A stretch of DNA of 64,000 nucleotides from Naegleria gruberi (lineage: Eukaryota), in the NCBI GenBank assembly GCA_000004985.1, contig GG738847.1. The stretch is one strand, 5' to 3'. Shown one piece after another: positions 135 through 49,890 of the stretch. The notes under the pieces were generated by a model. It ran no database searches and was not told the DNA's origin. It saw only the letters and a list, made by a program, of their open reading frames with translations. The translations under genes and the position numbers were made by a program. Position 1 is the first letter of the stretch. Each line of letters opens with the position of its first letter.

Positions 135-913
135 TTACAATTCTCTTGTTTTAACTTGTCTATCAATTTTAGCAAGAGGAGTGGTTGGTGTTGCCACTGT
201 TAATGGTTTCTTTGTTGTCTTGATTGAGTTCAACAAGTCTCTTACGAATTGTGGATTTCCCCAATCATCATCTTGTTCAAGTTCATCCAATGGATATGAT
301 AAAACTCCAGTTAAAAGAGAAAGATCTAGACCTCTATCGTCATATTTCATATTAAGGAAGTGATGAAGAGTGGCTTTTGTGGATTGATCGAGTTCTTGAA
401 GGGTTTGAACTTTTTGAGATGCATACTCCTCAGGTGCTTCAGCAACAGAACCTTCCATTCCATTTCCACCTACTTGATCCAATGAAGGAATGAAAGCTCC
501 TTCTTCATCCTCTACATCCAATGGTCGAGGAACATTTTGAAATAAATAAGAATTATCTTGTTGAGTTTGCTTTCTATATTCCGATTAAGAAAAACAATCC
601 AAAATTCATAAACCTACTCTACGTTTGCTGTTGAGTTTTTTCCGAAAATTCCCAACAATTTTCTTCCTCCTTTTTGTTCTTTTGTACTCGTAGCATCCTC
701 ATCCTCTTGCCAACCTTTTTTCAGCAATGAATTATCTTTAGCAAGAGTGATTGGTGGTGCTGAACCACCATCATCCTCTCCATCATCGTTGGCGTTCTTT
801 TGTTCCTGAAGGTACTTTCTTCTTCTACTTAAAACACTTCCGATATTACGATCTTTAACCTTTGTTGCTCCTTCGTTTGGGTTGACGGCATTTTCATCAG
901 CAGCTAACGACAT
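135..913 (-). CDS. Hypothetical acidic protein, predicted 2 exons: complement(join(135..573,618..913)). Intron 574..617 is 44 nt, GTAGGT...TATAG.
   Basis: Track ORFs 614..913 and 135..521 on the same strand join in frame through a 44-nt intron with a canonical donor and acceptor. ATG at 913..911. No family recognised. Confidence 0.4.
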
Positions 914-19020: not shown

Positions 19021-20294
19021 ATGGGCAAGAGAAGCCGCACAATTGATCAAGACAAGGATCTTGAGGAAGCAAGAGAACCACAAGAGATGAATCTTTATGA
19101 TCACTTATCGAGTTTGTATGATAGTTGTAATGGAGAGAATGAAGAAGGAGCAAATAATAATAATAATAACACTATTATTGTTCCTCCGAATGTTATTGTA
19201 AAGACTTCGTTTAAAGATTTTAATGTTCATGAATTTGCAGTCAAGAGAAGTGGCTTATTTAGAACCATGATTGATTCGAATGAACAGTGGAAATTGGGAA
19301 AAGTTGATGATAAATTCAATATTGATTTGACAAGTGTTGAAGGCTCTATTTCAACAGAGGGAGAACCTTTGAAAAAAAAAGATTTTGAAATCATTTTCCG
19401 ATATTTGTATTGTGATGATTTTAATTGTTATATGGGTACTTCAACCTTGAAAAGAATTATTGACATGGCCAAATATTTGGATATTCCCTCTCTTATCACA
19501 AAGATACTTGATGGAATTCAATTTTCACTTAAATATTTCCCAATCAAGTACTCATTGAAAGGAGAGTTGACTGAGCATGAGATTGTTGATCTAATTTTCA
19601 AATTAACTAATCGATTTAAAAATAATTACGGCGAAGAAGTGAAAGGATATTCGAATGAACTAATCTCATATATTTGCCAACAACAATTGGTTCCTCTATT
19701 TATCAAAGTTAACCTTTTACAACGTCATTTAACACAAAATAACAAAGGGGTTGTGATTACAAAAGAAATGCTGCAACCATTTTCAGAATGCATCAAAAAA
19801 ATGAGAAAGGAATCCAAATACTTATTACCAAACCAATCTGAGAACATTGACCCAACAATGTTCAAATTATTGGAATTGAAACAGCCAAAAGAAAATCCAT
19901 GCAAACGCAAACACTATCGTTGTGCTGATACTGTTTATATTTCTATGGGAGCAGAAGAAGACTCAGGTGAGGTAAGTGAGAAATTTTATATAATAGTTAT
20001 TAACAATTTTAACCAATTGTTAAGGATTTTCATTTATTTGATGGTAAGGTTCGTATAGATGTTTCATGTGCTTCCAGGAGCTCAGCTTTTTGGTGGGATC
20101 TCACCTTTCAAAACGATCTCGCCAATGAGGAAATTAAACTAGCTTACAAAATATTCTACCAAGCTAATGTTGGTTCTAAACAGGAAGCAATAACAGAAAT
20201 TGACGATATTTCTGCAACAGAAACAATTTATGCACCCCAATTCGATACTGGTGGATTTTATGCTAACTTTCTCTTCTTTTTCAAAAGAAATTAG
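19021..20294 (+). CDS. BTB/POZ-domain protein. Exons 19021..19971 and 20059..20294, intron 19972..20058 (87 nt, GTAAGT...TATAG).
   Basis: BTB-like block (FNVHEFAVKRSGLFRTMI...FEIIFRYLYCDDF...LKRIIDMAKYLDIPSL). The splice removes an in-frame stop and opens an 80-codon C-terminal exon. Confidence 0.5.
19155..19172 (+). repeat. (AAT)n microsatellite encoding poly-Asn in the BTB gene.
   Basis: aataataataataataac within the CDS; this kind of tract recurs in other genes of the window. Confidence 0.5.
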
Positions 20295-20374
20295 ATTCCT
20301 AATTCACTTAAATTTCATGTAAATGTTTCTTGCAATAAACAGTTTATTGTAAACATTAGTTTTCTTACAAAAAA

Positions 20375-21340
20375 ATGAATCAAAGTGATGCTACTAAACC
20401 ACAACCTTCTTTTGGATTCAAATTGGGTGCAATAATAGTCAGCTCCTCTGTGATGGCTTCTCTAATAATATCCCGATTCAGAGTTTGTAATTCAGAGGCA
20501 GAATATTTAATTCGGAAGAGAATTAGGGATGGTAAAATAATTGTTAGTAGGAGGGGAATTGTTTGGCCCTTTCAATCATCACGAATTATTAAATTGGATC
20601 AACCTCTATTGAAAGTATGTGTTTCTAATAGTAACAATATTAATAATAAAAATATTGGTGGATTAATAAAGTTTGATTGGAATGAAAGAGAATTTCCGAT
20701 TGAGAGAATGAAAGTTAGTATTGTGGATTATGAAAAGAATCGGAAAGGATTTTTGGAAATATCTGAAAGGTTATTGGATAAAGATGAAAAGAAAATCTTA
20801 GATCGAAAGGAAATGGAAGAATTAATTGAGAAAGTTGTGGAGAAATTCACAAACATTGATAATAATTTCATGGAGGAGCTCAACAAGGACCTGAATGAAA
20901 GAGGATTGGAGATATTTTCATTCAATGTAAGAAAACCAATTAATGAACTAATTGAAAAGGAAACATTGAGTAAGGAAGATGTTGAAAAATTAATGGAAAA
21001 GAATGTAAAATTGAATGAGTTAATAGAAATTTCACCTCAAGATCCAAACTCTTACATGAAAAGAGGTAAATTCTATTTAGAAGAGTGCCATTTCTACGAC
21101 AAGGCCATTGATGATTTCTCAACAGCTATTGAACTCTATCCAAACAATTCATATGCCCACTTTTATAGAGCTATTGTCTACTACAAATTGGGCCTCAATT
21201 CTCCAGCTCTCCACGATTTTACACTAGTCACCCAGATTGAACTTTATGACACTTCAATCCTTCACGAAGCCAAGCATTACCTCTCCCTCCTAACCGACCC
21301 AAGACAGAGATATCCCAAATTGGAAGACAAAAAGTTCTAA
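20375..21340 (+). CDS. N-terminally membrane-anchored protein with C-terminal TPR repeats, 321 aa.
   Basis: ATG at 20375, a hydrophobic segment LGAIIVSSSVMASLIISRF, and TPR-like motifs (KRGKFYLEECHFYDKAIDDFSTAIELYPNNSYAHFYRAIVYYKLG). Confidence 0.55.
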   Translation: MNQSDATKPQPSFGFKLGAIIVSSSVMASLIISRFRVCNSEAEYLIRKRIRDGKIIVSRRGIVWPFQSSRIIKLDQPLLKVCVSNSNNINNKNIGGLIKFDWNEREFPIERMKVSIVDYEKNRKGFLEISERLLDKDEKKILDRKEMEELIEKVVEKFTNIDNNFMEELNKDLNERGLEIFSFNVRKPINELIEKETLSKEDVEKLMEKNVKLNELIEISPQDPNSYMKRGKFYLEECHFYDKAIDDFSTAIELYPNNSYAHFYRAIVYYKLGLNSPALHDFTLVTQIELYDTSILHEAKHYLSLLTDPRQRYPKLEDKKF

Positions 21341-21343
21341 AAA

Positions 21344-22822
21344 ATGGCTCAACACGTTTTCTCCAGTGCTAATTCTTCGAGCACTGTTCGTACAAGTACT
21401 GTATTTTCTTGTGGGTATGTAGTTATTGAATATGGATAGAATGGTGTGAATTGTTGAATATAATGTACTTTCCAAAGGTCCAACAAATCTAATGCACTTG
21501 CCTTAGATGATTCCTTAAAGGAAACAGAAAATAATGGAAGTAAAATATATGAAAAACCACTTCCGATTGATGAGGGAGCATTTCAGGGATTTAGAGTTGT
21601 CAAGTAGGTTTCTTTGCAATTGTTAAAACTCGAATTAATGAAAGAGTTTTTTCTGGATATAATCATTCAGTATTTATTGATGAGAATGGAAGAGCTTATG
21701 CAATTGGTAGTAATTTACAACATCAACTTGGAATTGGAGGTGCAAGTTTTGCTGTAAAACCAACCCTTATTAGAGAATTATCAGGCATGGTGATTGTAAA
21801 TTGTGTTTTGGGATATTCGACAAATATTTTCGAGAACGACAGAGGAGAATTGTATGGAATTGGGTATAATATGAGTTATGAGATGGGTATTGATAATGAT
21901 TTTCATTTCCATAGGATTGTTCCATTGGATGTTTTTAATACTCGTCGAAGTTTGTTTAAATTACCTTTTAAACAGGTTTTAATTGGACAGGATATGTTTC
22001 AAGAGGGTTCTTGGAGTGCATTCCTAACGAGAAATTCCAGAATTTTCATTGCTAATCATCGTGTATTTGATCCCAAATATGTTAAAAAGTGCTTTACCAA
22101 GAATAATGCACTTTACAAATTGAAAACTGAATTGTTTACAACTGACATTATTGAGAAAATAGCAGGAACCAAAAAGAGATTAATTATATTAACAAGTATG
22201 TTATTGATTTACAAGTATTTCTGAATCACAATTAATTCAAAAAGAAAAGGGGCATATTTTCAGACAGAGAGAAAAAGTATTTGCTCGACTAACACTACCG
22301 CTCAAGAAAGATGAAATAGTACAGGATGTATTTGATTCTGATTACTTTGAGCTGTACAGAACTTCCCTTAATAGATTTTATGGTGCTGGTTTTTCTTTTA
22401 CTTCTGTCACAGACGTTACGAATGATAACTCTGTGGGGTTGATTAGTTTTGGTTTGCCTCCAGGTGTTAGCATTACAAACATTTATCTTGGCATAAAGAC
22501 ACTATTCCTAAATTGCACAGATAGTAATATGTATTCAATGGGATTTAATTCATGTGGTCAATCTGGTATTGGAGAAGTTTATCAATTGGTTAAATCTCCA
22601 CACAAAGTATTGTTGGATCCATCAATATTGAAACCTGGTGAAATGTTTGCTGCCGCACCTGGTTTCCAGCATACCTTCTTTTACATAACAACTATTGATT
22701 CATCTAACACAATTATGCCAAACATTTACATGTCGTCTGAATATTTATTCAGAAGACACCTTTTGGATCTTGTTGATGCTGAGAATGGATATTCTGACAT
22801 TGTGTTTAAATTATACCACTAA
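21344..22822 (+). CDS. RCC1-repeat protein, 4 predicted exons: 21344..21414, 21478..21594, 21636..22195 and approximately 22272..22822. The last intron boundary is approximate.
   Basis: RCC1-like repeats are present (YAIGSNLQHQLGIGG, YGIGYNMSYEMG, MGFNSCGQSGIGE). Donors GTATGT, GTAGGT and GTATGT. The ATG at 21344 lies 3 nt after the stop of the upstream gene and in the same frame. Confidence 0.5.
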
Positions 22823-22863
22823 ATTCAAAAAAAACAGTAAATTAATTTATTCTAAAGTAAAAA

Positions 22864-25377
22864 TTATTGCTCTCTTGGAATTGGATTGACTGGTGGTGGG
22901 AAGTAGCCACTGTATGCGGTAACAACTGGAGTAGCGAAAGGTGGAGGAACCATCATTCCAGGTTGTGGATAATAATGATAAGGGAAAGGTTGCGGATTAG
23001 TTTGTGGATGAATAGCAGTTTGGGAATCAATATCAACAGATGTAATAGAAGTAGCATCTGCATCCTTAAAGCTCTTTCTTTGCTCAATTTCTTCATCATC
23101 CAACCAAGTAGGACCAACAGACTTTTCGAATTGATCTAGACTAACCTTGAAAAAGTGATTACGAATTTGAATATCTTCTATCTTTCCAGCCCAAGAAACT
23201 GTTCTGAAATTATTATTGTAAGATGGGTTTGTTGGAGGGAATTGAGGAGTATAGACAAATGGTGTACCAACTGCAGGTGGATATCCAACAATAGGAGGTG
23301 TAGGATAGAATCCAACTCCTACACCTGGAGGAACCATTTGTGGAGGTTGAGTGACTTGTGGCATTTGAGGGTTTGTTGGAGGTGTGGTTGTACTAGTTGG
23401 AGGTGTTGGTGTGGTAATCTTTGGAACGAATGCAGGAGTCTTTGGATTAAAAACGAAAGCTTTAGCATTAGGATTAAGTGTTGACTTTGGTTTTGGCTTT
23501 TCTTCTTCTTTTGGTTGTTCTTTCTTAGTTTCTGTGGCTGGCTTGGTTTCAGTTGTTGGTTTAGTGGCAGCAGAAGTGGTTGTTGATTCTGGAGCGTCCT
23601 TAATCTTGGAAGAGAGGAGAGAACTGAATTCCTTGAATGATGATGTTTCCTTTTCTCTATTTCTATTCAAGTCACTGGACTTCTTCTTGTATTCCATAAA
23701 ATGTTCAACAACTTCTGGTGTTACCTTTGGTACGAAAGGATGTAAGTGCAATGACATAATACTTTCCTTGATTGGATTTGGAGTAGAAGGACTTGTTGCC
23801 TTAGGGAATCCAAGTGGAGAAGAAGGAAGAGTTGGACTCATAGTACCACTTCCCAATTTTGGACTAACAGTAACTGGTTTAGTGAGTTGAGCTCTAATGT
23901 TCTTATGTTCTTCAATCTTTTGTGGAAGTGGAGCTGATCCAATAGTAAATGAATTACTTCTACCAGGTCTAGTTGTATCTACTAACAAATTGGTAACATT
24001 CTTTGGTTTTGGGGTTTCAATTGGAATACTTTGAGATTTCTCAATGAGAGACTTTTCTGGAAGAACTACTTGACTCACAGAACGGCTTTTACCAATTGAT
24101 CCCTTGATACCTTCAATAATAGGTGAGAGAGGCTTAATCTTGATAGGTTCCTTATCAAGAACAGCTTCTGCTTCTTGAGTTTGCTTTACAATTGGTTGAG
24201 AAGTAGGATGACCCTTTGGTTGCTTGTGTGGAGGTACATATTTTCCAGGAGTTGATGGTTGAGTAGCATTTGTTGCCAATGGTTGAGTAGTCTTTGGAAT
24301 ATTCTTCTTTGGTTGCTTTTTGAAAGCTGATGCACCCTTTGGATCACGAATAACAGAACTGTACAAGTCTTCTTCTGAAATATCAGTTTGTTCCAATAAA
24401 CCTCTTTCTTCCAAAATGTGAATACTATTAAGAGATGGAGCACTCTTTTCAATTTCTTCAGCAATTCTACTAGCTTTAGCAGCATGAGTTTTGTAGAAAT
24501 CAGAATTTCTGTCAAGATTTGTAGTATATAAATGTTCCTCATAAGTAGATTTAACACCAAACTTATTCAAGTTTTCAGAAAATTGATCCCATTGTCTTGG
24601 AGCATAAGTACCCTCTTCAAGTGAAATAAGTTCAGCTTCATTTTCTTCAGGTTGCCATTTAATTAATTCCTTTTCTGTTTGTTGTCTATTAGAAATTTCA
24701 GTATCAGTTTTGAATGATGTAAATGCCTTTTTAGCATTAAAGGTAATATTCTTAGCATAAATTTGTTGAACATCCTTTGATTTGAAGGTCATTGTTTCAT
24801 GAATAGTTTGAGTACCACTTCCTCCAATTAATTTAGCAAGTGTCAAAACAAAAACAAAATCATCATTTAAGGAATCGGCTTTAGCAGTGTGGAAAATACC
24901 TTCATAAACTTCTCCAGAAACATTGACAATTTCAACTACATGTCCAACGAAATTCAAAAAGAGGAAGAACATTCTCTTTCTGTTGATTTCAGACTTGTGT
25001 TTGTATTGTTCATTGTTCTCACTATGAGTAGTATTGTGAGTATTCTTTACACGAGGTGGGTTTGTATTAACATTTGATCCGTTCTTATTTTGATGTTGAT
25101 TTGGTTGTTGATTGTTGTTTGGGACTGATCCCTTATTGTTGTTATTAGCATTGTTTCTCTTTTGATTATTATCCATAGTATTATTACTAGAAGGAGAAGG
25201 CTTGGTCTTGTTACTCCAAGCAGAATTATTGTTGTTGTTGTTTGGTGTTTGTTGTTGTCCAGAGCTTTGATTCTTCTTCAGAGTTGTTGTTGATTGGCTG
25301 GAAGATGCTGGCGAAGCATTGCCAACAACACCAGAAGAACCAACAGCAGCGCCGCCGTTGTTTTGCTTGGACACCAT
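22864..25377 (-). CDS. ATXN2: Ataxin-2/Pbp1 homolog with an LSm domain and PAM2 motif; 837 aa with extensive low complexity.
   Basis: LSm-like region (FVGHVVEIVNVSGEVYEGIFHTAKADSLNDDFVFVL...) followed by LsmAD-like sequence, then a PAM2-like STLNPNAKAFVFNPKTPAFVP. ATG at 25377. Confidence 0.7.
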   Translation of the reverse strand: MVSKQNNGGAAVGSSGVVGNASPASSSQSTTTLKKNQSSGQQQTPNNNNNNSAWSNKTKPSPSSNNTMDNNQKRNNANNNNKGSVPNNNQQPNQHQNKNGSNVNTNPPRVKNTHNTTHSENNEQYKHKSEINRKRMFFLFLNFVGHVVEIVNVSGEVYEGIFHTAKADSLNDDFVFVLTLAKLIGGSGTQTIHETMTFKSKDVQQIYAKNITFNAKKAFTSFKTDTEISNRQQTEKELIKWQPEENEAELISLEEGTYAPRQWDQFSENLNKFGVKSTYEEHLYTTNLDRNSDFYKTHAAKASRIAEEIEKSAPSLNSIHILEERGLLEQTDISEEDLYSSVIRDPKGASAFKKQPKKNIPKTTQPLATNATQPSTPGKYVPPHKQPKGHPTSQPIVKQTQEAEAVLDKEPIKIKPLSPIIEGIKGSIGKSRSVSQVVLPEKSLIEKSQSIPIETPKPKNVTNLLVDTTRPGRSNSFTIGSAPLPQKIEEHKNIRAQLTKPVTVSPKLGSGTMSPTLPSSPLGFPKATSPSTPNPIKESIMSLHLHPFVPKVTPEVVEHFMEYKKKSSDLNRNREKETSSFKEFSSLLSSKIKDAPESTTTSAATKPTTETKPATETKKEQPKEEEKPKPKSTLNPNAKAFVFNPKTPAFVPKITTPTPPTSTTTPPTNPQMPQVTQPPQMVPPGVGVGFYPTPPIVGYPPAVGTPFVYTPQFPPTNPSYNNNFRTVSWAGKIEDIQIRNHFFKVSLDQFEKSVGPTWLDDEEIEQRKSFKDADATSITSVDIDSQTAIHPQTNPQPFPYHYYPQPGMMVPPPFATPVVTAYSGYFPPPVNPIPREQ

Positions 25378-42329: not shown

Positions 42330-43477
42330 ATGGTCAATCAAAAGAAGGTTGAGTACAACGAACGTGGACAAAGAATTGAAAAAAGCCTTAAATATTTCGT
42401 AATTGAGGAAAGAAGAAAACGGGAAAAGGAAGAGGACGATCCACTAGAAGGCATTATGGAAGAGAGTTTGTTCATTAATAGTCAATCGGGAATGGAATTA
42501 CTTTCTCAATATTGTCTTCCAACACCAAAGAGGTTTGTAAATTGTCAGAGGAAATATAGTTTTGAAAATTTAATAGCCTAAATAATCAGCTTATTGTAGA
42601 GAATTATGATCATCATCTTATTGATTTGAATTCAATGTTGCTTGTCAAGTATGAAGACATGAATGATTTACAATCTAGGCTTGATGATATTACTACCTCA
42701 ATGAAAACATTATCCTTTGAGAAGGATGTTCCTGGAGAGGAAGAATTTCCAACTCAATTTGATGGAGTTAATTTTGAAATTAGTACTCAATTGAAAAAGT
42801 ATAAATCAAACTTTGAAAATAAGAGACTAAGCAAGTTTCTATCATGCGAAAAGAATCAAAAGACAATATTTGATTTCATCAAACCATCCCATGTAAGTTG
42901 TATTGAATCAGTAGGACATAACATTAGCCTTTCGAATGAGAAGAAAAGAAAACCCGATGAACCTAAACTCTCCGAAGAGCAATCCAACTTCAAAAAGCAA
43001 AAACTCATTTCAGAATATACATGTCATCAGAGTGGAGAGGAAATGTTTGAAATCTTAGAGAGGAGCATTGAGAGAAAGAAGAAACAGCATCAAGGACATT
43101 CTGAGAAACAAGTTGAAGAACAACATTTAGTGGTTGTACTCGAAGAATCACCAGATGTTTCATCCTATTCGTCTAAAAATCAGCCTTCCTCCTTGAAACC
43201 TCAAGAACCTTCTGCCTCAATTCAATCCAACAGTAAAGCAAAGCAATTAGAATCAAAGCCAAGTGAGGAAACTCCCATCGAAACCAAGCCAAAAACCTAC
43301 ATGGAAAGAATTAGAGATCATGCCAAACTCTTCCATTCCAAACACATTCCCAAAAGCACCCTAACCATCAAAAAGAAGCCAGAGAAACAAAAAACTAGAG
43401 ACATTCTCAAAGAGGAAGATGATTTCTCGATTCCACAGGTTGACTCTTCTGTGATAAACAGTCTCTTTTCCTATTAA
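42330..43477 (+). CDS. Hypothetical charged Ser/Lys/Glu-rich protein. Exons 42330..42532 and 42577..43477, intron 42533..42576 (44 nt, GTTTGT...AATAG).
   Basis: Two track ORFs join in frame. ATG at 42330. Confidence 0.45.
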
Positions 43478-43480
43478 AAA

Positions 43481-43887
43481 ATGTCTCAAACAACAGCTGT
43501 TGTCGATAGTAATCTTTCACACTTTAAGACAATCAAGGAATTTATTTTCAATTCCTTTGTGATACATCTCGGAACAGAGAGATGTCCAGTTCTTTCCGAT
43601 ATTTTAATGTTGTGCATGAGCTCGGCTCCACCATCATCAAGAGAAGAATTATGTCGGCTACACAAAGATAGATTGGATCATTGTTTGGATCATGAAATGA
43701 GGATAGAGTAAGTAGTAGATTTGTGTGATTTGTTTTGGATGATTATTTTCAATAGATTTGAAAGACAAATTCACTCAAATTGTTCAACTCAATTCAGAAC
43801 ATTAACTTCGGGGAAGTTGGAAAAGAACTTGGCCTATAATGAATTGATCAATTGTCTCAGGGAGCAAATCACCAAACCTACCTCCAT
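43481..43887 (+). CDS. Small hypothetical protein of about 123 aa. Exons 43481..43707 and 43756..43887, intron 48 nt (GTAAGT...AATAG).
   Basis: The ATG at 43481 lies 3 nt downstream of, and in frame with, the stop of the preceding gene. The splice extends the ORF by 44 codons. Confidence 0.4.
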
Positions 43888-44189
43888 CATTATTTAATTG
43901 TGTAGGTTACATGGAAGTATACTCTTCTTGGATCGATTTAACTTTGGATTGAATTGTAGTATTATTCGCCTGTTTAGCAATATGAACGAATGAAGCTTAC
44001 ATTAATACTAAAATTGATGAAATATTATTTTGCAATTATTCCATCAGATAATAAAGAAATAACACAACAATTTAATTAGTTTTAAATTTTTATATAAATT
44101 ATTGTTGGATTGTAAGACAATCCTTTTCGTTTGATTATGTTTGTTGGATTGGTTTAAAAACGGAGGATAATTTAGAGGAGAGGGAAAAT

Positions 44190-45027: not shown

Positions 45028-46199
45028 ATGAAAACAAAGGAACATATTATGTTTGATTTGGAGATGCCATCTTCGTTAGAGAGTTTATCGGAGGCGGATA
45101 GGAAAAAATTATCTTCTTTCCAGAGAAGTAATTCAAGAGGAAATATTCAAACCTATGAAAAGATTGTGCCAATTTCTTTGAATGATGATTTGGTAATCGA
45201 TATTGATGATAATGCTGGTTCGTTGGAGTATTTGGAAATTGATTGTGGAAAAGGTAATTTTGATCATCTTGTTATTGATTGTTATTGATCTTTTTAGGTC
45301 TTGAAATTAATTATATAGAGAAGAATCCATTTGATGTATATAATGATGATAGCATTTCAGAGTATAGGTATCCAAAAGATTGTGATGTAAAAAAGAAGAA
45401 ATCAGCTAATGGTTCATCATCGAATGGACAAGTTTCTTCAGAGGATTCTTCAAGGCCTTCAAGTGCTGGCAGTAGTGGAAGCAGTAAGAGGATACGAGTA
45501 AATGCAAATCCACTCTGTGAAACAGTTTCTCATAATTTACAAATAGATACCATAGATACAGATTCTCTGAGAGATGGAATTCTTTGCCTAAGTGAAAGAA
45601 AGAGAAGAAAAAGAGCCATTCTCAATTTATCGACATTTAATGCAGAGGCTATGGTTATTGAAAAGATTTTACAGAGAAGAAAAACAGGGTTTGAGGACGA
45701 ATATGAATATTTGGTAAAACCAGAGAATTTTGAGGATACTGTTTGGGTTTCCGAAAGTGTTTGTAAAATTAAGGGAGTGAAAGCATGGGCTCTCTATCAA
45801 AAATGCACAGATTCTATACCTTCTTTTGAGAGCAAGGAGGAACAATTAATAGATGAAATATCAAAAGAAATTTGTGACTGTTTTGAAAATGATGGGATTT
45901 TGGATGCTTTAATTGATTTAGAAAAGGAGGAGAATGTAAATGCAATAATTCAATCTACATTTATGGATAATTTATTGATGAATTATTCTCAAGATTTGAG
46001 CACACTACGAAATGTAAAAACATCCATTGCTAGCTCTAAATTACCTGAAAAAATTAAGAAACACATAGACGAGAAAGTAGAACAATTTTTACAAATGTCA
46101 GCAATGAAATCTAAGCGTGATCCACTAGAAATTACCAAAAACGATATTGCACTGAGAAAGGAATTGGTGAAATTTGCAAATTATATCAACAAGCATTAA
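45028..46199 (+). CDS. Chromodomain-containing protein. Exons 45028..45253 and 45298..46199, intron 44 nt (GTAATT...TTTAG).
   Basis: Chromo-like segment EKILQRRKTGFEDEYEYLVKPENFEDTVWVSES. ATG at 45028. Confidence 0.5.
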
Positions 46200-49257: not shown

Positions 49258-49890
49258 TTCAAAGAACTATTAGAGTTTGATTAGGTTAAGGCTTTTTGAT
49301 TTAAACAAACCTTTTTTGATTGTTGTATCAGTTCTTCCTTTTCACTCCTCAGTCTTTCGTTTTCTATTTTGTACATATTAAGCTGACTATTCACAAATTC
49401 AAATTCATACTTCATCCTATCGCAAAACTCAAAGGCTGAAAATGCTTGCCCATTCTAATAACATGATGAAAAAAATCCACAATGATAATCACAGCCATGA
49501 TGGTGGTAGTATGATGATGAATAGAAAATTAGCGTGATCATGATAATGTTGATTAGTGAATGAAGGTGGTGTAAAAAATGAGGTTATTGTCGCCAGTCAA
49601 AATCAAAGCCTTAATATTTTTTACGTACCATTGCTGGGCGGGAATTAGATTGCAAATGTTGTTGGCTATTGCTTGCTGACATTTTTTTTGATGAGAACAC
49701 TTTGCAGCGATAATGGTTTTTCTCTCTCGAGTCATGACATGATGACTTGTTGAGGATTAAGCCTGTGGTCCACAAAATAACACTTATACAAAATAATCCC
49801 TTACCTGTTCTATCCAACACACATTTACACTTGTAATATTTACAATTGTTAGTGACAATGATAATTATTATAATAACAACAATAATAAAT

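What the first reader, a model, noticed from the sequence alone, without database searches (positions are those of the whole stretch)
21338..21346. Two same-strand genes separated only by an in-frame TAA-AAA-ATG (TPR membrane protein to RCC1-repeat gene)
The upstream ORF (20375..21340) ends ...KKF-TAA and the RCC1-like gene begins 3 nt later at ATG 21344, in the same reading frame. A 3-nt 5'UTR is not compatible with independent scanning initiation. The alternatives are stop-codon readthrough or a fusion protein, a sequencing or assembly error at the stop, a transcription start inside the upstream CDS, or a bicistronic transcript. The identical 9-mer junction recurs at 43475..43483.
Basis: seen in the sequence. 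Interest (0 to 1): 0.5.

Follow-up and report, generated by a model that had tools for sequence, protein, structure and literature searches.

The report
Two Naegleria genes three bases apart
In this very compact Naegleria gruberi genome, one gene's stop codon lies inside the next gene's usual A-rich start signal (TAA-AAA-ATG); this is real tight gene packing, not a fused protein or an error, and it has misled the reference annotation.

Summary
ORF 20375..21340 ends in TAA at 21338-40, and the RCC1-repeat gene starts in frame at ATG 21344. The window is Naegleria gruberi nuclear DNA. The 9-mer is not a special junction. An A-run before ATG is this genome's gene-start context: A at -1..-6 in 26-34 of 36 starts, and 19 of 28 ATGs with at least five preceding A open an ORF of at least 60 codons, against a base rate of about 15%. 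The T before the A-run supplies the upstream stop. Other same-strand spacers are 69-540 nt, so the two 3-nt spacers are outliers.

The second junction (43475-83) is conserved in a relative at 50% protein identity. The reference gene model bridges it with an invented 141-nt intron.

I think the most likely reading is two separate genes with overlapping transcription units. The downstream start site would lie in or at the end of the upstream coding sequence. The upstream poly(A) site would lie in the first codons of the downstream gene. A bicistronic mRNA with reinitiation is the main rival. Readthrough, splice fusion and sequencing error are unlikely. No RNA data could be reached. Interest is modest.

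The parts
20375..21340 (+). Upstream gene: 321-aa protein with an N-terminal hydrophobic segment, a charged middle region that looks like coiled coil, and C-terminal TPR repeats. Its own start has the usual context (ACAAAAAA-ATG).
   Evidence: ORF list. Pfam TPR_11/TPR_17/TPR_1/TPR_2 at residues 227-274. The codon-usage score is positive in this frame in every 120-nt segment, including the last 40 codons.
21338..21346 (+). Junction 1: TAA (stop of the upstream gene), AAA, ATG (start of the RCC1-repeat gene). T plus A5 plus ATG is the ordinary start context of this genome.
21336..21341 (+). TCTAAA hexamer overlapping the stop codon. It is of the NNTAAA type but is not a canonical AAUAAA/AUUAAA signal, so a role as a weak poly(A) signal is inference only.
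   Evidence: There is no AATAAA or ATTAAA on the + strand anywhere in 21250-22900.
21344..21414 (+). RCC1-repeat gene, exon 1 (MAQHVFSSANSSSTVRTSTVFSCG).
   Evidence: My splice model. The Pfam RCC1 repeat at residues 19-77 crosses the exon 1/2 joint.
21415..21477 (+). Intron 1, 63 nt, GTATGT...AAAG.
21478..21603 (+). RCC1-repeat gene, exon 2.
21604..21644 (+). Intron 2, 41 nt, GTAGGT...AAAG.
21645..22195 (+). RCC1-repeat gene, exon 3.
22196..22244 (+). Intron 3, 49 nt, GTATGT...AAAG.
22245..22822 (+). RCC1-repeat gene, exon 4. It ends ...DAENGYSDIVFKLYH-TAA, 41 nt from the stop of the convergent ataxin-2 gene (22864..25377, minus strand).
42330..43477 (+). Upstream gene of junction 2: exons 42330-42532, 42577-42892 and 42944-43477. 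The protein has no known domain and ends ...VDSSVINSLFSY.
   Evidence: An orthologue at 50% identity has both introns in the same places and the same C-terminus.
43473..43478 (+). ATTAAA hexamer overlapping the stop codon of that gene. This is a dual-use stop/poly(A)-signal arrangement of the kind described for N. gruberi.
   Evidence: PMC11529991. The same hexamer is present in the relative L001.
43475..43483 (+). Junction 2: the same TAA-AAA-ATG. It is conserved, with 22 identical bases (TTTTCCTATTAAAAAATGTCTC), in a related species.
43481..43897 (+). Downstream gene of junction 2: exons 43481-43707 and 43756-43897, 122 aa, no known domain.
19021..20294 (+). Neighbouring BTB-domain gene: exons 19021-19971 and 20025-20294, with a 53-nt intron. 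An AATAAA at 20334-20339 lies 35 nt before the ATG of the TPR gene. The spacer to the TPR gene is 80 nt. This is a normal but already overlapping tandem arrangement, useful for comparison.

Best explanation
These are two separate protein-coding genes of Naegleria gruberi packed head to tail. Genes in this genome start with a non-A base, five or more A, then ATG. Where the non-A base is T, the signal reads TAAAAAATG, and here its TAA also serves as the stop codon of the gene in front. I infer that the two genes are expressed from separate, overlapping transcripts. The start site of the downstream gene would lie within the last tens of bases of the upstream coding sequence, or in the A-run itself, giving a very short leader. 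The upstream mRNA would be cleaved and polyadenylated some 15-25 nt past its stop, inside the first codons of the downstream gene. Shown: both ORFs are real genes; the 9-mer is the generic start context; 3-nt spacing is an outlier; the same arrangement at 43475 is conserved between species. Inferred: where transcripts begin and end.
For: Identity of the genome: P0001 and P0037 are N. gruberi proteins at 97% and 100% identity. GC is 33%, introns are 41-63 nt, and the genes are eukaryotic: ataxin-2, FANCL, kinesin-14, PUF.

Start context: A occupies -1..-6 in 34, 29, 32, 33, 26 and 26 of 36 starts. Of 28 ATGs preceded by at least 5 A, 19 open an ORF of at least 60 codons, against a base rate of about 15%, and most of the rest look like short first exons. 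At least 5 of the 7 TAAAAAATG sites are gene starts.

Both genes are real: Pfam TPR and RCC1 matches, PDB RCC1-like matches such as UVR8 at 67 bits, and a positive coding score in the stated frames up to the stop and from the ATG.

Overlap is normal here. Convergent stops are 17, 5, 1, 23, 41, 58, 44, 292, -4 and 22 nt apart, while the published median 3'UTR is 39 nt with the signal 15-20 nt before cleavage (PMC11529991). In the 69-nt spacer 34964->34894, an E2F-like site of the downstream promoter lies between the upstream stop and its AATAAA. The BTB gene's AATAAA lies 35 nt before the TPR gene's ATG.

Stops often sit inside NNTAAA hexamers: 18 of 34 ends read TAAA, and junction 2 reads ATTAAA. 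This fits the published dual-use stop/poly(A) signals.

Short leaders: TATA-like hexamers pile up at -30..-11 from the ATG (29 hits in two 10-nt bins, against 1-8 in the 12 bins further upstream), and E2F-like sites lie about 20-80 nt upstream.

Conservation: a relative at 50% identity has the same ...LFSY-TAA-AAA-ATG-TCT junction.

General biology: Heterolobosea show ordinary gene organisation with no long same-strand gene runs (bioRxiv 10.64898/2026.07.29.740908).
Against: No RNA evidence could be reached, so no start site or poly(A) site has been seen. The 120 nt upstream of the two abutting starts look like coding sequence, not like a promoter. GC is 0.43 and 0.38 there, against 0.16-0.33 for 14 other starts. 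The AT-rich k-mers enriched upstream of other genes are almost all absent, and there are no TATA-like hexamers within 150 nt, although 6 of the 34 other starts also have none. In the one comparison available, synonymous sites upstream of junction 2 are not unusually conserved, so no embedded promoter stands out. Junction 1 has no canonical poly(A) hexamer between the TPR stop and the end of the RCC1 gene, which would also fit a transcript running through both genes. For junction 1 itself no orthologue or second copy of the sequence was found.
Confidence: 0.55

Rival explanations
1. Bicistronic mRNA with translational coupling. Both ORFs are transcribed as one mRNA from the upstream promoter. 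After terminating at UAA, the ribosome or its small subunit reinitiates at the AUG three bases further on.
For: The spacing is identical (TAA-AAA-ATG) at both junctions and in the orthologue of junction 2. No promoter-like composition or motifs lie upstream of either downstream gene. Between the two species only the roughly 22 nt at the junction are conserved at the nucleotide level, not the sequence upstream. There is no canonical poly(A) hexamer between the TPR stop and the end of the RCC1 gene. Polycistronic mRNAs are now known in green algae, fungi and Cryptosporidium, and 80S-mediated reinitiation in yeast (titles and abstracts).
Against: From general knowledge, reinitiation after a long ORF (321 and about 350 codons) is normally very inefficient unless a special upstream element is present. 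Junction 2 carries a conserved AUUAAA over its stop, which by the published rules should end the upstream mRNA about 15-20 nt later. The conserved junction is also explained by selection on the C-terminus, the stop and the start context. No report of polycistrons in Naegleria was found.
Confidence: 0.2
2. One fused TPR-RCC1 protein, made by stop-codon readthrough or by splicing out the stop. One candidate is the in-frame 33-nt stretch 21334..21366, GTTCTA...CTCCAG.
For: The two ORFs are in the same frame. A family of eukaryotic metagenome proteins (P0013, P0015-P0019, starting MGGSVS...) has N-terminal TPR repeats followed by an RCC1 domain. One BLASTP alignment runs across the junction (query 268-485 against P0018 82-274, E 5e-6). 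A 33-nt GT..AG stretch would keep the frame (sequence).
Against: UAA followed by A is the commonest terminator context in this window (18 of 34 ends), and from general knowledge it is not a known leaky context. The fused family is no closer to this RCC1 gene than unrelated RCC1 proteins: 60 bits against 67 for UVR8 and 62 for HERC2. Profile comparison aligns only RCC1 repeats, out of register, with no TPR match, and the family was not among the hits of the TPR ORF. The 33-nt candidate has a poor donor (GTTCTA, against GTATGT/GTAAGT/GTAGGT/GTTTGT/GTGAGT) and is shorter than every intron seen here (41-63 nt). No other donor in the TPR ORF has the right phase (my reading). At junction 2, the bridging intron of the reference model is contradicted by the relative, which lacks the GT yet conserves the peptide inside the 'intron'.
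Confidence: 0.05
3. At junction 1 only: a recent nonsense change (for example AAA-AAA-ATG, Lys-Lys-Met, to TAA-AAA-ATG) or a base-calling error in what is really one ORF. The apparent start context would then be a coincidence.
For: No independent sequence of junction 1 was found. The reference model P0001 is partial and ends within the TPR ORF, and no reference protein matches the RCC1 gene. A single A-to-T change would create the junction. The RCC1 gene looks degenerate in its middle part and seems to end at the beginning of a BTB-like segment.
Against: The same junction at 43475 is certainly not an error and is old. A random nonsense mutation would rarely fall exactly one codon before a Met that has the full start context. 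A homopolymer-length error in the A-run would not remove the TAA. Both parts keep open frames and correct splice phases.
Confidence: 0.08

Closest known systems
Overlapping transcription units in compact eukaryotic genomes (microsporidia such as Encephalitozoon, nucleomorphs, Giardia). This comparison is from my own knowledge of that literature.
   Same: Adjacent genes leave no room for untranslated regions or a promoter, so transcripts must begin or end inside neighbouring genes. Leaders and 3'UTRs are very short, and the region just before the ATG is A/T-rich.
   Different: Naegleria is a free-living amoeboflagellate with a 41-Mb genome, not a reduced parasite or endosymbiont. Most same-strand spacers in this window are still 69-540 nt, so the 3-nt cases form a distinct minority class. 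Transcript ends have not been mapped here.
Dual-use stop codon / poly(A) signal in N. gruberi and Giardia (Genome Res 2024, PMC11529991).
   Same: The stop codon lies inside a poly(A)-signal-type hexamer. Junction 2 reads AUUAAA and five other gene ends here read AAUAAA. The published 3'UTRs for such sites are about 22 nt.
   Different: At these junctions the same few bases also carry the start context of the next gene. Junction 1 has only a non-canonical UCUAAA. That paper did not deal with downstream genes.
Termination-reinitiation junctions of viral and some cellular bicistronic mRNAs (UAAUG/AUGA-type overlaps in caliciviruses and influenza B; 80S reinitiation in yeast, PMC11952965).
   Same: The stop and the next start lie within a few bases on the same strand.
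   Different: Those systems depend on a single mRNA and usually on an upstream rRNA-binding element. Neither has been shown here, and junction 2 carries a poly(A)-type signal.
Polycistronic nuclear genes of green algae (PNAS 2021, PMC7896298; leaky scanning, PMC11291117).
   Same: Two ORFs lie on one strand with a short inter-ORF distance in a free-living eukaryote.
   Different: The algal mechanism, leaky scanning past a weak upstream start, needs a short upstream ORF with few AUGs. Here the upstream ORFs are more than 320 codons long and have a strong start context.

Membership tests
Abutting or overlapping transcription units of a compact eukaryotic genome | Same-strand neighbours are separated by less sequence than the UTRs and a promoter need. 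| tested here: met
   The spacer is 3 nt at both junctions. The other tandem spacers are 69-540 nt. The published median 3'UTR is 39 nt.
Abutting or overlapping transcription units of a compact eukaryotic genome | Both ORFs are genuine, separately terminated and separately initiated coding genes. | tested here: met
   Pfam TPR and RCC1 matches, coding scores and the full start context at both ATGs. For junction 2 the orthologue has the same stop and start.
Abutting or overlapping transcription units of a compact eukaryotic genome | The 5' end of the downstream mRNA lies inside the upstream gene, and the 3' end of the upstream mRNA lies inside the downstream gene. | not testable with these tools
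   No RNA data could be reached, and no transcript-derived proteins for these genes are in the protein collection.
Dual-use stop codon / poly(A) signal (N. gruberi, PMC11529991) | The stop codon lies inside an AAUAAA or AUUAAA hexamer. | tested here: inconclusive
   Junction 2 meets it (ATTAAA at 43473-78, also in L001). Junction 1 does not (TCTAAA).
Bicistronic mRNA with termination-reinitiation | The stop of ORF1 and the start of ORF2 overlap or lie within a few bases. | tested here: met
   TAA-AAA-ATG.
Bicistronic mRNA with termination-reinitiation | One mature mRNA carries both ORFs. | not testable with these tools
   No RNA data.
Bicistronic mRNA with termination-reinitiation | An upstream element tethers the ribosome, for example through 18S rRNA complementarity. 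| not tested
   The 18S rRNA sequence is not in the window. Synonymous sites upstream of junction 2 show no conserved block.
Programmed stop-codon readthrough | A leaky stop context, such as UGA-CUAG or UAG-CAR-YYA. | tested here: not met
   The context is UAA-A, the commonest terminator tetranucleotide in the window (18 of 34).
Programmed stop-codon readthrough | The fused architecture is conserved in true orthologues. | tested here: inconclusive
   A TPR+RCC1 family exists, but it is not specifically related. No orthologues of either gene were found.
Euglenozoan-type polycistron resolved by spliced-leader trans-splicing | A trans-splice acceptor (pyrimidine tract plus AG) lies between the ORFs, and genes form long same-strand runs. 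| tested here: not met
   The spacer is AAA, and strand changes are frequent in the window. Heterolobosea average about 2 genes per same-strand run.

The most novel reading that the evidence does not exclude
UAA-AAA-AUG is a conserved translational-coupling junction. A sizeable minority of Naegleria same-strand gene pairs (2 of 13 here) would be expressed from bicistronic mRNAs, with the ribosome reinitiating three bases after terminating. That would be operon-like expression without trans-splicing in a free-living relative of the Euglenozoa.
Probability: 0.17. Interest if true: 0.75.

Novelty: new member of a known kind. Interest (0 to 1): 0.33.

Why it matters
It shows how far gene packing goes in a free-living eukaryote. 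A single 9-base stretch carries the stop of one gene, a poly(A)-type hexamer and the start context of the next, and at one locus it has been kept across species that share only about 50% protein identity.

In practice it exposes annotation errors. The reference model NAEGRDRAFT_78069 joins two genes by inventing a 141-nt intron over the stop, and the partial model P0001 joins the BTB gene to part of the TPR gene. If 2 of 13 tandem pairs is typical, many N. gruberi models may be affected.

It also marks concrete loci where existing long-read RNA data could show whether Naegleria uses embedded promoters or bicistronic mRNAs.

Tried and rejected
1. Exact look-ups of the TPR ORF, P0001 and P0037 in the contig index found nothing.
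2. Two metagenome scans, with the TPR ORF and with the gene-26 alignment, found no relatives.
3. The exhaustive protein search with the TPR ORF was swamped by long multi-TPR proteins. Only P0001 matched outside the TPR part.
5. The lead that the pair is a split TPR-RCC1 gene was rejected as specific evidence, for the reasons given under the fusion rival.
6. I looked for in-frame splice routes from the TPR ORF into RCC1 exons. Only the poor 33-nt candidate fits, and the other GTA-type donors are in the wrong phase (my reading).
7. I looked for a promoter embedded in the upstream CDS. There were no enriched upstream k-mers, no TATA-like hexamers and no excess synonymous conservation.
8. The base before the A-run is a pyrimidine about as often as composition predicts, by my own count, so there is no support for an initiator rule.
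9. Six literature searches found nothing on Naegleria 5'UTR lengths, start sites or polycistrons. The genome paper is not held.
10. My first model of gene 26 read a 3n stopless intron as coding and misplaced an acceptor. This was corrected.
Full report
**What is in the sequence.** The sequence reads ...AAG TTC TAA AAA ATG GCT..., with TAA at 21338-40 and ATG at 21344-46. The upstream ORF 20375..21340 encodes 321 aa. It has a hydrophobic N-terminal segment and TPR repeats at residues 227-274. Its codon-usage score is positive in this frame and negative in the others all along the ORF, including the last 40 codons.

The downstream gene needs three short introns of 63, 41 and 49 nt (GTATGT or GTAGGT ... 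AAAG). My model (exons 21344-21414, 21478-21603, 21645-22195, 22245-22822) gives a 441-aa protein. A Pfam RCC1 repeat at residues 19-77 crosses the exon 1/exon 2 joint. Exon 1 is therefore coding, and ATG 21344, its only ATG and directly preceded by the in-frame TAA, is the start. PDB RCC1-like proteins match as well: UVR8 at 67 bits and HERC2 at 62 bits.

**Where the window comes from.** The window has 33% GC. It carries short introns and eukaryotic genes such as ataxin-2, FANCL, kinesin-14 and PUF. Near-identical matches to N. gruberi proteins (P0001 at 97%; P0037) identify it as Naegleria gruberi nuclear DNA. Translating the window with the reference model's introns reproduces P0037 exactly, 427 of 427 residues.

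**The 9-mer is the ordinary start signal.** TAAAAAATG is not enriched: 7 copies against 4.4 expected. An A-run before ATG, however, marks gene starts very strongly. Over 36 starts, A occupies -1 to -6 in 34, 29, 32, 33, 26 and 26 cases. Some of those starts were chosen with help from the A-run, but the long first-ATG ORFs show the same pattern. Of 28 ATGs preceded by at least five A on either strand, 19 open an ORF of at least 60 codons, against about 15% for ATGs in general. Most of the rest look like short first exons. When the run is exactly five A, the preceding base is T in 7 of 8 cases, which gives TAAAAAATG. The recurrence of the 9-mer therefore needs no special explanation, and being in frame follows from the 9-mer itself.

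**What is unusual.** From a rough gene list, stop-to-ATG distances for same-strand neighbours are 540, 80, 3, 201, 122, 91, 69, 156, 3, 160, 208, 133 and 324 nt. The two 3-nt cases stand apart from the rest. The sequence upstream of these two starts is coding-like. GC is 0.43 and 0.38, against 0.16-0.33 for 14 other starts. The AT-rich k-mers enriched upstream of other genes are almost all absent, as are TATA-like hexamers, although six of the 34 other starts also lack the latter.

**The genome overlaps its transcripts routinely.** Convergent genes end 17, 5, 1, 23, 41, 58, 44, 292, -4 and 22 nt apart. Published direct-RNA data give N. gruberi a median 3'UTR of 39 nt, an AAUAAA signal 15-20 nt before the cleavage site, and 11-13% of stop codons lying inside AAUAAA (PMC11529991).
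- In this window 18 of 34 gene ends read TAAA. Five lie in AATAAA, three in ATTAAA and three in TGTAAA.
- In the 69-nt spacer 34964->34894, an E2F-like site of the downstream gene lies between the upstream stop and its AATAAA.
- The BTB gene upstream of the TPR gene really ends at 20294 after a 53-nt intron. Its AATAAA lies 35 nt before the TPR gene's ATG.
- TATA-like hexamers peak at -30..-11 from the ATG, and E2F-like sites lie about 20-80 nt upstream. Both suggest short leaders.

**The second junction gives the comparative evidence.** The gene ending at 43477 has exons 42330-42532, 42577-42892 and 42944-43477. The small gene starting at 43481 has exons 43481-43707 and 43756-43897. The reference annotation joins them into one model, NAEGRDRAFT_78069, by removing a 141-nt 'intron' at 43439..43579 (GTTGAC...ACAGAG). 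That is two to three times longer than the other introns I identified in the window, and its donor is poor.

A relative from an ENA metagenome (P0038, contig L001) shares 50% identity and both true introns. It ends ...IDSSIVNQLFSY-TAA-AAA-ATG-TCT, with 22 identical bases across the junction (TTTTCCTATTAAAAAATGTCTC). It has no GT at the reference 'donor', and it conserves the peptide that the reference model would splice out. Junction 2 is therefore real, old and maintained, and the bridging intron is an artefact. Codon-level comparison shows no extra synonymous conservation in the 60 codons before the junction. The contig ends 18 nt after the ATG, so the downstream orthologue cannot be followed.

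**Junction 1 has no such support.** I found no orthologue of either gene. The word-indexed searches, the exhaustive search and a metagenome scan gave only generic TPR or RCC1 proteins, plus the partial reference model P0001. P0001 wrongly splices the BTB gene to residues 99-184 of the TPR ORF.

Six of the seven hits to the RCC1 gene belong to one family that carries TPR repeats in front of an RCC1 domain, and one BLASTP alignment crosses the junction. I do not take this as evidence of a split or fused gene, for three reasons.
- The family scores no better than unrelated RCC1 proteins.
- Profile comparison aligns only RCC1 repeats, out of register.
- The family did not appear among the hits of the TPR ORF.

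**Mechanism.** The best reading, at about 0.55, is two genes with overlapping transcription units.
- The downstream start site lies in the last tens of bases of the upstream CDS or in the A-run.
- The upstream mRNA ends 15-25 nt past its stop. At junction 2 the conserved AUUAAA over the stop fits this directly.
- At both junctions the first codons of the downstream gene are CA-rich and then U/GU-rich (CAACAC-GTTTTCTCC and CAAACAACAGC-TGTTGTCG). That resembles a cleavage site with a downstream element. This is my reading, not a test.

The main rival, at about 0.2, is a bicistronic mRNA with reinitiation. It is favoured by the missing promoter features, by the lack of any canonical signal between the TPR stop and the end of the RCC1 gene, and by the identical spacing.

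Readthrough or splice fusion (about 0.05) and a recent nonsense change or error at junction 1 (about 0.08) are unlikely. UAA-A is the standard terminator context here. The only in-frame splice candidate, 33 nt from 21334 to 21366, has a poor donor. Junction 2 shows that the arrangement is a stable state.

**Verdict.** It is an extreme but explicable case of gene packing, of a kind known from other compact eukaryotic genomes, so it is a new member of a known kind. Its value lies in exposing faulty reference models and in marking two loci where existing long-read RNA data could decide between embedded promoters and bicistronic expression in Naegleria.

Noticed in passing
window 43439..43579 (and 19972..20671): Two N. 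gruberi reference gene models appear to be wrong fusions. NAEGRDRAFT_78069 (P0037) bridges a stop/start junction with an invented 141-nt intron. The partial model P0001 splices the BTB gene onto residues 99-184 of the TPR ORF, whereas a 53-nt intron (19972-20024) and a terminal exon to 20294 fit better.
   Followed up: yes
window 13637/13639, 9208/9214, 46196-46199, 4691/4709, 58810/58833: Convergent genes end 1, 5, -4 (overlapping stop codons), 17 and 22 nt apart, so their 3'UTRs must run antisense into the neighbour's coding sequence.
   Followed up: partly
upstream of ATGs 913(-), 3018(-), 18843(-)/19021(+), 25377(-), 34894(-), 62881(-): E2F-like sites (TTGGCGCC, TTCCCGCC, TGGCGGGAA, TCCCGCCC, AAGGCGCCAG) lie about 20-80 nt upstream of several start codons. 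One lies in the 177-nt divergent spacer shared by two genes.
   Followed up: no
window-wide, -30..-11 from start codons: TATA-like hexamers (TAAAAT, AAAATA, TTTAAA and similar) pile up 11-30 nt before the ATG: 29 hits in two 10-nt bins, against 1-8 in the 12 bins further upstream. This hints at very short 5' leaders in this genome.
   Followed up: partly
window 22730..22822: The RCC1-repeat protein ends ...LLDLVDAENGYSDIVFKLYH-stop. This looks like the first strand of a BTB domain cut short, as in RCC1-BTB proteins. The ataxin-2 gene on the other strand ends only 41 nt away, and the middle of the protein matches RCC1 models poorly. The gene may be truncated or decaying.
   Followed up: no
window 21334..21366: A 33-nt GT...AG stretch (GTTCTAAAAAATGGCTCAACACGTTTTCTCCAG) would, if spliced, join the TPR and RCC1 frames in phase. 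The donor is poor and it is shorter than any intron seen here.
   Followed up: partly
window 42893..42943: This 51-nt intron is a multiple of three with no in-frame stop, so an ORF finder reads straight through it. The relative L001 has an intron at the same place.
   Followed up: yes
L001 590..620 (minus strand) and 729..741: In the related species, the orthologue of gene 26 (TTTAAAAAAAATG) and an unidentified divergent gene on the other strand (AGAAAAAAATG) also start after an A-run. That neighbour does not look like the GST gene found at this position in the window.
   Followed up: no
window 49572..49580 (+): One TAAAAAATG copy lies on the strand opposite the 5' exons of the gene that starts at 49682(-), and it opens only 33 codons. 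It is probably a chance copy rather than a gene start.
   Followed up: no
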